Below, piece by piece: positions 1 through 3,000 of a DNA stretch of 64,000 nucleotides. Made by a program: the position numbers. Origin of the DNA: Heteronotia binoei. Taxonomy: Eukaryota. The DNA lies in assembly GCF_032191835.1 (NCBI RefSeq), contig NC_083239.1:39060001-39124000 (forward strand), in the 5' to 3' direction. Each line of letters opens with the position of its first letter. Position 1 is the first letter of the stretch.

Positions 1-3000
1 TGCTCACAAGACTCCATGGCTTAGAGGAAGCATTGCCCAGAGCACCCACCCACCCCCATCTTCATTCTTAACAAAACCCCTTCTATCGGTGACCAAAGAG
101 ACGTGAGGATCCAGGTAGTATAACAACAAGTTTATTGAAAGTGCTCATAAATAAACAAGTGGGGTTTAATTATTAGTGCAACAGTGAAAGGTAGAAACAA
201 CAAAGGTGATGCAAAGAAAATAACAACCCTGACTTGACTAACTAAACATTCCCTTCCTCTAATGCCGACAGACTCACCACCCGTTGGGTGGGAGAATCTC
301 TTCCAGCTTTTATTTTTTAAAAGACATCTTCATACATTCTATTTTGGACAGTTACTGTAGTGACCCTGAGGGCTTCTTCTCCTCCCTCAAAACTGACTTT
401 TGTTGTCTTTCCCGACTTTTTAAGTACGGTAAACGATACTGACAGATTTCTCAAACTTCGTTTTAAAAAGATGATACGGTTGCCCTTCGTTAGTTTGTGG
501 GAATCTTCTAAATAGCAGTGGGCATTTTTACCTTCTTGTTTACACACCTTCAACCACTCCCTTACGTTTCTTTTTAAAACATTTCTGAGATGCCGTTGCC
601 TGTCATGGGCAAAGGAAGTGTGGTAGATCGTCCAGCTCACGTCACTTTCATCGTGGGCTGCTTTTCCCTCAACGGAGCCTTCCTCTGGTTTGCAAAACGA
701 ATGGCCGAGAAGAAGACGAAACAAAACAAAACCCTACAGAGGAGATTTCAGAGGGCAGGAAAAGGAGTCATTAGCCAAAGAGTGGGGCTCCCTGAACACA
801 GCCGGTGCATGGAAGTAGGCCATAGAGGCAACTGCCTGGCCTACAGGGCGCCACTAGGTGCCCCCTCCCCACACGCCCCTTCTGCCCACCCAAGATCCAG
901 GCGGACAAAAGAGGCGGTGTGGCCTCACTTTGAGGCTGCATCCCCTGTGAGGGAAGGCAGCCTCAGAGAAAGGCAGAGGTGCTGTATTGCCTCTTTCGTC
1001 CGCCTGGGAGCTGCAGCAACTACCTGCCTCCCCACTATTTAGCTGATCAATGGGGGGGGGGGGTTAAGTGGGAGGGGGGAGGCAGCAGAAGCAGCCGCAC
1101 CTCCTCCCCATTTAAAGACCCCCACCCATGGGGGGGCAGGGATGGGGGGGAGGAACGTGGGGAGGGGGCAGCAGCCTGGGAAAGCAACAAATCCCAGCAC
1201 CACCCCTGTCCCTGAACTGGCTCAAGAAGTTTTAACGTCAGCGGAGATCGGGACCACGGAGGCAAAAGGAACTGAAGAAAACAACAAACTCACTCCGTGT
1301 ACAAAATAATTCTCTGTGTAATCCACAATATACGATTTCTTAGTCTTAAATAACAATCCAATGGCACAGAAAAAAGACCATCCAATGCACTACACGACTG
1401 CTGTCCAGAAAACAGATTGACGTTTAAACTGTAGTCCAAACGATAAAACAGAACAGGTCTATTTCGTTTCGGATATGAACTATCCTTCTTCAGGGGACCA
1501 TCTTCAAACTCTTAGGTTCGGTAGAGTTGAAGTGCCATATTTCTTTTCCTGGCTTTTCACGTTTCTATTTCATTTAATTCATTTTCTGGAATTCCAATTA
1601 CAATCCATCAGCATTTTGGCTGCTAAGAAATCACATTTTGTGGATTACACAGAGAATTATTTTGTACACGGAGTGAGTTTTGTTGTTTTTCTTCAAGAAG
1701 TCTGAAGGCGGATCTGGAGAACTTCTTATTGCAGCGTTCAGTTTTTTGGGATTTTTTCTCCCCAGCACGGCTATTCTGCTTTTCAGCCAAAGCACCCCCC
1801 AAGAACAGGAGAAATACTTACTTGAACAAACACAGGATTATCAAGAAGAGGATTGCTGAAGACCCCCAAATGTTATTGTGGGATGCTGAAATGAGAAAAC
1901 ATGGAAATCCTTCTGATTATCAGCAGCATCCAAGCCTTTCTATTGTCCCTCTTAGACAGGAGCTCCTTTGCATATTAGGCCACACACCCTTGATGTAGCC
2001 AATCCTCCAAGAGCTTACCAAAAAAAAGCCTTGTAAGCTCTTGGAAGATTGGCTGCATCAGGGGGTGTGGCCTGATATGCAAAGGCGCTCCTGCTAGAAT
2101 TCCATCCTGCTCTTAGAAAACACAATCACCCCAACCAAAACCTCAGTTCTGACACAGTACAGACAACCACAAGGTCTTTTCACCCCTATTTACCATTCAG
2201 AGCAGCATCTTCAGACAGAACAAATACTAAAAAGATATTTATACATATGAAGCTGCCTACACTGAACCAGACCCTTGGCCCATCAAGGGTCAGTACTGTC
2301 TACTCAGACTGAAAGTCTTTCCAGGGGGTCAGGCAGAGGTCTTTCCCATCACCAACTTCCTGATCCTTTAGCATCAGGGATTGAATGTGAGAACCAGTTT
2401 GATGTAGTGGTTAAGTGTGCGGACTCTTATCTGGGAGAACCGGGTTTGATTCACCTCTCCTCCACTTGCAGCTGCTGGAACGGCCTTGGGTCAGCCATAG
2501 CTCTTGCAGAGCTGTCCTTGAAAGGGCAGCTTCTGGGAGAGCTCTCTCAACCCCACCTACCTCACAGGCAGCATTCCCTCTAAGCTGAGTTAGCGTGAGC
2601 TAGCTCACAGATTTTTAGCCTCCAGCTTACCCATTTTTGTCTTTGCTCAGGAAAAATGGCCCCAGCAACACTCTATGCAGTAGCTCACAACTTTGATGGC
2701 AGTAGCTCACAAAGTAGAATTTTTGCTCACAAGAGCAGTTCGGTGTAGTGGTTAAGTGTGTGGACTCTTCTCTGGGAGAACTGGGTTTGATTCCCCACTC
2801 CTCCACATGCACCTGCTGGAATGGCCTTGGGTCAGCCATAGCTCTCGCAGAGCTTGTCCTTGAAAGGGCAGCTGCTGTGAGAGCCCTCTCAGCCCCACCC
2901 ACCTCACAGGGTACCTGTTGTGGGGGGAGAAGATATAGGAGATTGTGAGCCGCTCTGAGTCTCTGATCCAGAGAGAAGGGCAGGGTATAACTCTGCAATT

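What the first reader, a model, noticed from the sequence alone, without database searches (positions are those of the whole stretch)
733..1885. The transmembrane helix is split over two exons exactly inside the lysine codon (AA|G), in both paralogs
Seen: a 64-nt exon ends in AA|GT(A/G)AGT and the last exon starts with G, at 1822/733 and again at 33473/32832. The charged residue exists only if this precise phase-2 junction is made. The Ig-superfamily receptors I know generally encode the TM in one exon. Inference: the junction could act as a switch. An alternative last exon or acceptor would change or remove the second TM half. It also suggests how an activating TM could arise by recruiting a new terminal exon.
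Basis: partly seen in the sequence, partly recalled or inferred. Interest (0 to 1): 0.68.

Follow-up and report, generated by a model that had tools for sequence, protein, structure and literature searches.

The report
Gecko activating Siglec, split membrane anchor
Two neighbouring gecko immune-receptor genes each encode their membrane anchor on two exons that meet inside the codon of a buried lysine, a real and conserved gene layout that looks like ordinary constant splicing and not a switch.

Summary
The window is Heteronotia binoei (Bynoe's gecko) DNA. It holds two minus-strand CD33-related Siglec genes, A (12203..637) and B (43875..32748).

In each gene a 64-nt penultimate exon ends AA|GTRAGT and the terminal exon starts with G, so the AAG lysine is made by a phase-2 junction. 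That lysine sits inside a 28-35 residue uncharged stretch. The public RefSeq-style proteins of both genes use exactly these junctions.

The proteins are activating-type receptors. They have a sialic-acid-type V-set domain, a lysine in the membrane helix and a short tail without signalling motifs. Gene A has an inhibitory ITIM-bearing partner about 91% identical in two ectodomain exons.

The same lysine module occurs in 7 squamate species.

The "switch" reading finds no support. Splice signals are consensus and better conserved than the exon bodies. No alternative terminal exon lies in the window. No annotated isoform joins the 64-nt exon to anything else.

The "recruited terminal exon" idea has indirect, weak support.

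Exon structures in other species and transcripts could not be examined. Interest is modest.

The parts
12122..12203 (-). Gene A exon 1: start codon and signal peptide (82 nt, ends in phase 1)
   Evidence: Residues 1-28 of P0002 map here exactly. Donor AAAG|GTAGAA.
10072..10482 (-). Gene A V-set exon (411 nt, phase 1 to 1), with a GC donor (CAG|GCAAGA)
   Evidence: Pfam V-set E 1e-10 and Ig_CD22 E 2.7e-7. 100% identical to P0002. Keeps the YYFRI arginine.
7043..7342 (-). Gene A first C2-set exon (300 nt, phase 1 to 1)
   Evidence: Pfam C2-set_2 E 4.4e-6. Mapped from P0002. 91% identical to the inhibitory P0004.
6869..6922 (-). Gene A linker exon (54 nt)
   Evidence: P0002 residues 265-282 map here. 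Splice sites shown.
4582..4848 (-). Gene A second C2/I-set exon (267 nt, ends in phase 1)
   Evidence: Pfam I-set E 7.4e-14. Mapped.
1822..1885 (-). Gene A 64-nt exon: stalk end plus the first transmembrane half, ending with AA of the Lys codon
   Evidence: Donor CAA|GTAAGT.
734..1821 (-). Gene A last intron (1088 nt, phase 2). Reading through the donor gives AAG TAA.
   Evidence: It shares only its ends with the gene B intron.
637..733 (-). Gene A terminal exon, coding part: G of the Lys codon, second transmembrane half, 20-residue tail, TGA
   Evidence: 0 ITIM-like motifs after the transmembrane segment.
43794..43875 (-). Gene B exon 1: signal peptide (82 nt)
   Evidence: tblastn of P0023 residues 1-28, 100% identity.
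38972..39385 (-). Gene B V-set exon (414 nt), with a GC donor (CAG|GCAAGG)
   Evidence: Pfam V-set E 1e-8. Mapped from P0023.
35546..35848 (-). Gene B C2-set exon (303 nt)
   Evidence: Pfam C2-set_2 E 0.0015, below its curated cutoff. Mapped. 55-56% identical to the gene A exon.
34044..34097 (-). Gene B linker exon (54 nt)
   Evidence: P0023 residues 268-284 map here.
33473..33536 (-). Gene B 64-nt exon: first transmembrane half, ending with AA of the Lys codon
   Evidence: Donor GAA|GTGAGT.
32833..33472 (-). Gene B last intron (640 nt, phase 2). Reading through the donor gives AAG TGA.
32748..32832 (-). Gene B terminal exon, coding part: G of the Lys codon, second transmembrane half, 11-residue tail, TGA
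   Evidence: 0 ITIM-like motifs.

Best explanation
These are two tandem, intact, activating-type CD33-related Siglec genes of the gecko Heteronotia binoei. Each anchors its protein with one membrane-spanning helix that carries a central lysine. That helix is encoded jointly by a conserved 64-nt penultimate exon and the terminal exon.

The two exons are joined constitutively at a phase-2 junction, AA|G. The lysine most likely pairs with an aspartate of an ITAM adaptor of the DAP12 (TYROBP) type, as in mammalian Siglec-14, -15 and -16. Sialic-acid binding outside the cell would then give an activating signal, while the short tail carries no motif of its own.

Shown here: the anatomy, the junction, the match to public gene models, the domain content, the conservation of the splice signals, and the spread of the lysine module in squamates.

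Inferred: adaptor pairing, constitutive splicing, and the function of the lysine.
For: - Junction and frames.
- Exact mapping of P0002 and P0023 onto seven and six exons.
- All other introns are phase 1, which is usual for Ig-domain genes (my knowledge). Only the last is phase 2.
- Domains: V-set plus Ig_CD22 hits and C2/I-set hits. The arginine of the YYFRI motif is kept in both genes.
- The 24 best relatives of the V-set exon are nearly all named Siglecs of geckos and other reptiles.
- The basic residue lies inside the best hydrophobic window in both proteins. Tails are 20 and 11 residues with 0 ITIM-like motifs.
- Gene A has an inhibitory partner, P0004, on the same contig. It is 623 aa, has 3 ITIM-like motifs, and is 91% identical over the V-set and first C2 exons and 77% over the second C2 exon.
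- The lysine module (hydrophobic run, K, then V/I/A/L-L/V-F/L-C...) occurs in 14 proteins. They come from 7 squamate species: Heteronotia, Paroedura, Eublepharis, Gekko kuhli, Tiliqua, Rhineura and Pogona (names).
- Splice-site flanks are more conserved than exon bodies.
- No isoform variation at the junction.
- Siglecs with a positively charged transmembrane residue interact with DAP12 (passage in PMC6288428).
Against: - I saw no transcript reads. P0002 and P0023 carry XP_ accessions, which I take from my own knowledge to be computed models. Their agreement shows that an independent pipeline chose the same junction, not that the mRNA was observed.
- No adaptor protein was available, and binding was not tested. 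The lysine sits 11 residues (A) or 16 residues (B) from the cytoplasmic basic residues, so its depth differs between the paralogues.
- The uncharged stretch of 28-35 residues is longer than a typical single span, so the exact ends of the helix are unknown.
- Lack of annotated isoforms is weak evidence against regulated splicing.
Confidence: 0.78

Rival explanations
1. Regulated choice of the terminal exon or acceptor at the AA|G junction toggles the protein between an adaptor-coupled form and a form without the lysine or the second half. Intron retention would stop at once at AAG TAA or AAG TGA and leave a 16-residue hydrophobic end.
For: - Reading through either donor gives an immediate stop. 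A retained last intron would yield a truncated protein and, with no downstream junction, probably a stable mRNA (inference).
- In the related inhibitory gene of Rhineura floridana, three isoforms (P0170, P0171, P0169) diverge right after the lysines that close the transmembrane exon, and a fourth (P0168) skips that exon. So the equivalent junction is a branch point of annotated splicing in this family.
- Soluble forms made by intron retention exist in Paroedura (P0200, P0012).
Against: - The immediate stop follows automatically from any phase-2 intron with a GTRAGT donor, so it is not a special feature.
- Donors are consensus, acceptors have good pyrimidine tracts, and a CTAAT branch-point-like motif is conserved.
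- 0 of 16 Paroedura isoform proteins of activating-type genes join the first half to another exon.
- P0002 has four accessions and one protein. P0023 has a single accession.
- No relic of an ITIM or other tail exon of the inhibitory partner lies in the window.
Confidence: 0.07
2. An evolutionary reading, compatible with the best explanation. The split records how the activating anchor arose. The inhibitory Siglec transmembrane exon already ended at a juxtamembrane lysine. A terminal exon beginning with 11-16 hydrophobic residues was then joined there, burying that lysine. This exon could be the old first cytoplasmic exon extended 5' into its own pyrimidine tract.
For: - Rhineura inhibitory isoforms place the end of the transmembrane exon right after ...CSKK.
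- In geckos both exon types begin with the same x-S/T-H motif after the preceding Ig exon. P0014 shows this boundary for the inhibitory type.
- The first-half peptide resembles the inhibitory transmembrane peptide better than shuffles do, with z above 3, in 4 of 8 species-matched pairs.
- After the second hydrophobic half, the tail F-x-N-Q-R-K-A resembles the inhibitory F-Y-K-Q-R-K-A. This gave z of 2.6 or more in 3 of 11 pairs.
- The hydrophobic-coding start of the last exon is 69-76% pyrimidine, the same as the tract in front of it (76%). The 64-nt exon is 55-61%.
Against: - 4 of 8 and 8 of 11 pairs show no similarity above shuffles.
- The peptides are short and hydrophobic. T-richness is expected of any Phe/Leu-rich coding stretch.
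- The exon boundary of the gecko inhibitory genes was not seen.
- The direction of change is unknown.
- No DNA of an inhibitory gene was available.
Confidence: 0.3
3. The gene models are wrong at the 3' end. The real transcripts end differently, and the two-exon anchor is an artefact of prediction shared by the reader and the annotation pipeline.
For: Some relatives in the database are visibly mis-joined models, for example P0003 (908 aa) and P0030, which run on into the next gene.
Against: - The same continuation after the lysine is found in 14 proteins of 7 species from several annotation sources.
- Both paralogues keep open frames, consensus splice sites and conserved flanks.
- Without the terminal exon the proteins would have no membrane-spanning stretch.
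Confidence: 0.04

Closest known systems
Mammalian DAP12-coupled Siglecs and their inhibitory partners (Siglec-14/Siglec-5, Siglec-16/Siglec-11)
   Same: - A sialic-acid-type V-set ectodomain.
- A single basic residue in the membrane helix and a short tail.
- A partner gene with a near-identical ectodomain and an ITIM tail (gene A against P0004: 91%, 91% and 77% per exon).
The paired-receptor concept and DAP12 coupling come from passages in PMC5701461 and PMC6288428.
   Different: The membrane segment has another sequence. Eutherian K-type proteins found here read ..E..VK-I/V-LLL.LCL.. and marsupial ones ..LLRG.LMG...

In guinea pig, 5 of 5 isoforms keep both halves together and diverge about 26 residues after the helix. 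This suggests, but does not prove, a one-exon anchor there. That mammalian Siglec genes carry the anchor on one exon is my recollection and was not checked. Cao 2009 and Angata 2004 were not held.
Activating FcR-like and LRC receptors with one-exon anchors (Xenopus XFL TM1 type; turkey TILR-A and chicken CHIR-A)
   Same: Paired activating and inhibitory Ig-superfamily receptors. The activating form has a basic transmembrane residue and little or no tail.
   Different: There the transmembrane region and tail are on the same exon (passages in PMC2413239, and PMC3601082). The motif is NxxR near the outer end and couples to FcR-gamma. Here there are two exons and a central lysine.
CEACAM anchor evolution (a GPI-signal exon derived from a transmembrane exon by a stop codon; transmembrane and cytoplasmic exons exchanged as a unit)
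   Same: The signalling type of an Ig-superfamily receptor changes through events at its 3' exons (passages in PMC2110893).
   Different: In CEACAMs the transmembrane exon stays whole. Here the helix itself is made across the junction.

Membership tests
[quoted passage not shown] | N-terminal V-set Ig domain of the Siglec/CD22 type | tested here: met
   PF07686 E 1e-10 (A) and 1e-8 (B). PF24518 Ig_CD22 E 2.7e-7 and 2.7e-6, both above their cutoffs.
[quoted passage not shown] | Conserved arginine of the sugar-binding strand | tested here: met
   YYFRI is invariant in both V-set exons. That this is the sialic-acid-binding arginine is my recollection of the family, not a call.
[quoted passage not shown] | One or more C2-set domains, each on its own phase 1-1 exon | tested here: met
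   The gene B C2 hit (19.0 bits) is under the Pfam cutoff of 21, but it aligns at 55-56% identity to the gene A exon.
[quoted passage not shown] | Binds sialylated glycans | not testable with these tools
   Needs recombinant ectodomain and a glycan array.
Adaptor-coupled (DAP12-type) activating immunoreceptor | Single basic residue inside the membrane-spanning stretch | tested here: met
   K393 of P0002 and K306 of P0023, flanked by 16/11 and 18/16 uncharged residues. Both lie inside the best 21-residue hydrophobic window.
Adaptor-coupled (DAP12-type) activating immunoreceptor | Short cytoplasmic tail without ITIM or ITAM | tested here: met
   Tails of 20 and 11 residues with 0 ITIM-like motifs.
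Adaptor-coupled (DAP12-type) activating immunoreceptor | Physical association with DAP12 (or another ITAM adaptor) that depends on the basic residue | not testable with these tools
Paired receptor (activating and inhibitory twins) | A partner gene with a near-identical ectodomain and the opposite signalling end | tested here: met
   For gene A: P0004, 91% (V-set), 91% (C2a), 77% (C2b), with 3 ITIM-like motifs. For gene B no such partner was seen among the hits.
Alternative-splicing switch at the last junction | Two or more products that differ at the junction | tested here: not met
   0 of 16 Paroedura isoform proteins. P0002 has four accessions and one protein. Only annotated models were available, not reads.
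Alternative-splicing switch at the last junction | Weak or competing splice sites, or a second terminal exon | tested here: not met
   Donors are GTAAGT and GTGAGT. There is no tandem AG at either acceptor. No hit to the inhibitory tail exons.

The most novel reading that the evidence does not exclude
Squamate reptiles made their activating Siglecs by an exon-level route of their own. The inhibitory transmembrane exon already ended, in phase 2, at the lysine that normally sits just inside the cytoplasm. Joining it to a terminal exon that opens with 11-16 hydrophobic, very T-rich codons pushed that lysine into the middle of a longer helix and created an adaptor-binding site. The terminal exon may be the old first cytoplasmic exon extended into its own polypyrimidine tract. 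The AA|G junction would then be the fossil of that event. It would be independent of the seemingly one-exon K/R anchors of mammalian activating Siglecs.
Probability: 0.3. Interest if true: 0.5.

Novelty: new variant of a known kind. Interest (0 to 1): 0.3.

Why it matters
Activating partners of inhibitory immune receptors arise again and again in vertebrates, usually explained by point mutations or by swapping whole transmembrane and tail exons. A helix assembled across a splice junction, with the key lysine made by the junction itself, would be a third and simple route, and it would date to before the split of the major squamate lineages.

It also gives a clean experimental handle. One junction decides whether the receptor can couple to an adaptor.

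If the structure turns out to be the common ancestral one for sauropsid Siglecs, the finding is only a correct description of two annotated genes.

Tried and rejected
- Module search by word index. Residues 261-320 of the public Paroedura protein P0007 returned only itself and P0001, from 8 candidates. That is too insensitive to say whether other receptor families share the module.
- Further exon searches. The search with the first C2 exon returned 20 proteins, all from geckos. The terminal-exon module itself was therefore never searched exhaustively.
- ESM Atlas look-up of the module.
- Literature. Seven full-text searches found no description of a Siglec membrane anchor split between exons and no paper on squamate Siglecs with DAP12. 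Cao 2009 and Angata 2004 were not held. PMC5938342 was irrelevant.
- Relics of inhibitory exons. tblastn of P0004 and its last 153 residues against the window found only the shared Ig and signal exons. Nothing for the transmembrane or ITIM part had E below 0.17.
- GPI-anchor idea for a retained-intron product. I considered it and set it aside. The hydrophobic end would be only about 11-16 residues, and no such isoform is annotated.
- Repeated ORF fragments at 14457-14963, 34281-34628 and 58098-58580 gave no Pfam match.
- Joined coding sequences. Searches were exon by exon. What the joined model would add, such as a fold of the helix across the junction, stays open.
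Full report
**What is there.** The finding lies on the minus strand. Reading the reverse complement and translating shows a 64-nt exon in each gene.
- Gene A: exon 1885..1822, preceded by ..CTCATTTCAG and followed by GTAAGT. The terminal exon starts with G at 733, after ..CTCTGTAG.
- Gene B: exon 33536..33473, followed by GTGAGT. The terminal exon starts with G at 32832, after ..CTTCATAG.
- Both 64-nt exons end in AA, so the junction codon is AAG, lysine.
- In gene A only one frame of the 64-nt exon is open. 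In gene B two frames are open, and the phase-1 entry from the preceding exon fixes the frame.

**Whose genes these are.** A search with the translated V-set exon of gene A (exon only, not the joined model) returned 24 proteins at E of 1e-10 or less.
- P0023, 333 aa, named lectin 8 of the same species, is gene B.
- Both map letter for letter onto the window.
- Gene A has seven coding exons: 12203..12122, 10482..10072, 7342..7043, 6922..6869, 4848..4582, 1885..1822 and 733..637. They total 1275 nt.
- Gene B has six: 43875..43794, 39385..38972, 35848..35546, 34097..34044, 33536..33473 and 32832..32748. They total 1002 nt.
- Their C-termini read straight through the lysine junction.

An independent annotation therefore chose the same junctions. 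I take XP_ accessions to be computed models (my knowledge), and I saw no reads.

**I did not join exons, and I did not search or fold a joined sequence.** Searches were exon by exon.

**Domain content and type.**
- Pfam finds a V-set/Ig_CD22 domain and C2/I-set domains on separate exons.
- All introns are phase 1 except the last, which is phase 2.
- Both V-set exons keep the YYFRI arginine.
- The hydrophobic stretch straddles the junction. One search gives 16 uncharged residues, K, 11 in A and 18, K, 16 in B. The best 21-residue hydrophobicity window contains the K in both.
- Tails are 20 and 11 residues with no ITIM-like motif.

This is the signature of an adaptor-coupled activating receptor. 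Siglecs with a positively charged transmembrane residue use DAP12 (passage in PMC6288428).

Gene A also has an inhibitory twin on the same contig, P0004. It is 623 aa, has three ITIM-like motifs, and is 91%, 91% and 77% identical over the three Ig exons. This is the paired-receptor pattern known from Siglec-11/16 (passages in PMC5701461).

**Is the split real and old?** A and B are old paralogues, 49% identical in the V-set exon, yet they share the architecture.
- Their last introns (1088 and 640 nt) share only short pieces near the ends. The ancestral intron was therefore short, and each copy gained its own insertions.
- The splice flanks are better conserved than the coding bodies. The counts are 17 of 20 bases before and 10 of 12 after the 64-nt exon, and 31 of 40 before the last exon. 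Inside the exons they are 40 of 64 and 47 of 88.
- A CTAAT motif in the conserved block about 40 bases before the last acceptor looks like a branch point. That is my reading, not a test.

**Distribution.** A profile search of the two V-set exons against 1.84 billion representatives gave 887 hits at E of 0.001 or less, and I inspected the best 150.
- Screening all stored proteins for a basic residue inside a hydrophobic window flagged 28 of 173. A stricter pattern flagged 17 of 167.
- The squamate module (hydrophobic run, K, then V/I/A/L-L/V-F/L-C..) is present in 14 proteins of seven species: Heteronotia, Paroedura, Eublepharis, Gekko kuhli, Tiliqua scincoides, Rhineura floridana and Pogona vitticeps (names).
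- It therefore predates the split of geckos from the other squamates. That inference rests on the accepted squamate tree.
- In 7 of 8 peptides the stretch from the residue after the preceding exon to the lysine is 22 residues, as in the window. This fits a conserved 64-nt exon, but the boundaries outside the window are assumed.
- Eutherian and marsupial K/R-type Siglecs found in the same search have different membrane sequences.

**The switch idea.** I found nothing for it in these genes.
- Donors match GTRAGT. Acceptors have 76% pyrimidine tracts and no tandem AG.
- The window holds no relic of the partner's transmembrane or ITIM exons (best E 0.17).
- P0002 has four accessions with one protein. 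P0023 has a single accession.
- Of 16 Paroedura isoform proteins of activating-type genes, 15 keep the same continuation after the lysine, one (P0200) lacks both anchor exons, and none joins the first half elsewhere.
- The immediate stop on read-through (AAG TAA, AAG TGA) is automatic for a phase-2 intron with this donor.

Its annotated isoforms X1-X3 diverge right after the lysines that end the transmembrane exon, and X4 skips that exon. So that position is a splicing branch point in the family, but there it changes tails, not the helix.

**The origin idea.** The Rhineura result also shows that an inhibitory transmembrane exon can end at a juxtamembrane lysine.
- In geckos both exon types start with the same motif after the preceding Ig exon.
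- The first-half peptide beats shuffles, with z above 3, in 4 of 8 matched pairs, and fails in the other 4.
- The activating tail motif F-x-N-Q-R-K-A resembles the inhibitory F-Y-K-Q-R-K-A. It gave z of 2.6 or more in 3 of 11 pairs and failed in 8.
- The hydrophobic start of the last exon is as pyrimidine-rich as the tract before it: 69-76% against 76%, compared with 55-61% for the 64-nt exon.

Together these fit a model in which a terminal exon with a hydrophobic 5' extension was joined to a pre-existing lysine junction. The evidence is short-peptide similarity only, and no DNA of an inhibitory gene was available.

**Comparison with what is known.**
- Activating Ig-superfamily receptors whose structure I could read about have the anchor and tail on one exon: Xenopus XFL TM1 (PMC2413239, passages) and turkey TILR-A (PMC3601082, passages).
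- In guinea pig, 5 of 5 isoforms of a K-type Siglec diverge about 26 residues after the helix. This hints at a one-exon anchor in mammals.
- Seven literature searches found no description of a split Siglec anchor. The two most relevant comparative papers were not held.

**Verdict.** The genes are ordinary, intact, annotated activating-type Siglecs. The exon layout is a real, conserved, squamate-wide variant that I could not find described. The switch is unsupported, and the origin story is open. Other species' exon structures and transcript reads were not examined.

Noticed in passing
window 10070-10071 and 38970-38971 (minus strand): The intron after the V-set exon starts with GC, not GT, in both paralogues (CAG|GCAAGA and CAG|GCAAGG). 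The public proteins splice there (..VHVT|ELEKP.., ..VVVT|ELTEKP..). This is a conserved GC-AG intron. Some non-RefSeq models (P0010, P0033) read through it instead.
   Followed up: partly
window 18433-19986 (+): A single 517-codon open frame lies between the two Siglec genes. It has RING, B-box, PRY and SPRY domains (Pfam E 1e-13 to 5e-9), so it is an apparently intronless TRIM-type ubiquitin-ligase gene.
   Followed up: partly
gene A exons 10072-10482, 7043-7342 and 4582-4848, against protein P0004: The gene A ectodomain is 91%, 91% and 77% identical per exon to an ITIM-bearing Siglec of the same contig, while the anchors and tails are unrelated. This is a gecko activating/inhibitory pair of the Siglec-5/14 kind, possibly kept alike by gene conversion.
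   Followed up: partly
window 1623-1695 and 1273-1343: A 73-base inverted repeat (93% identity) lies inside the last intron of gene A, within the roughly 900 bases that gene B lacks. It looks like a small hairpin-forming insertion.
   Followed up: no
window 560-636 (minus strand, just after the gene A stop): The frame after the TGA of gene A continues with a peptide that resembles the longer tail of the Paroedura protein P0001 (..GISQMFKK). Heteronotia therefore seems to have a slightly earlier stop in the same exon.
   Followed up: no
window 14457-14963 (-), 34281-34628 (+), 58098-58580 (+): Three related open-frame fragments share motifs such as ..RPHLEYC.QFW.PH.KKDI..LE.VQRR.T.M..GLE... They gave no Pfam match. 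I recall such sequence from the 3' part of CR1-like LINE elements, but this was not tested. One copy lies in a gene B intron.
   Followed up: partly
proteins P0021 against P0189 (Paroedura picta): Two isoforms differ by one alanine exactly where the first anchor exon begins (..HWHL|GPKE.. against ..HWHL|AGPKE..), as expected of a tandem NAGNAG acceptor. This marks that exon boundary in another gecko.
   Followed up: no
gene B, between 35546 and 34097: Gene B has no counterpart of the second C2/I-set exon of gene A. tblastn with that exon found only itself. The paralogues therefore differ in ectodomain length (3 against 2 Ig domains) but share the anchor module.
   Followed up: partly
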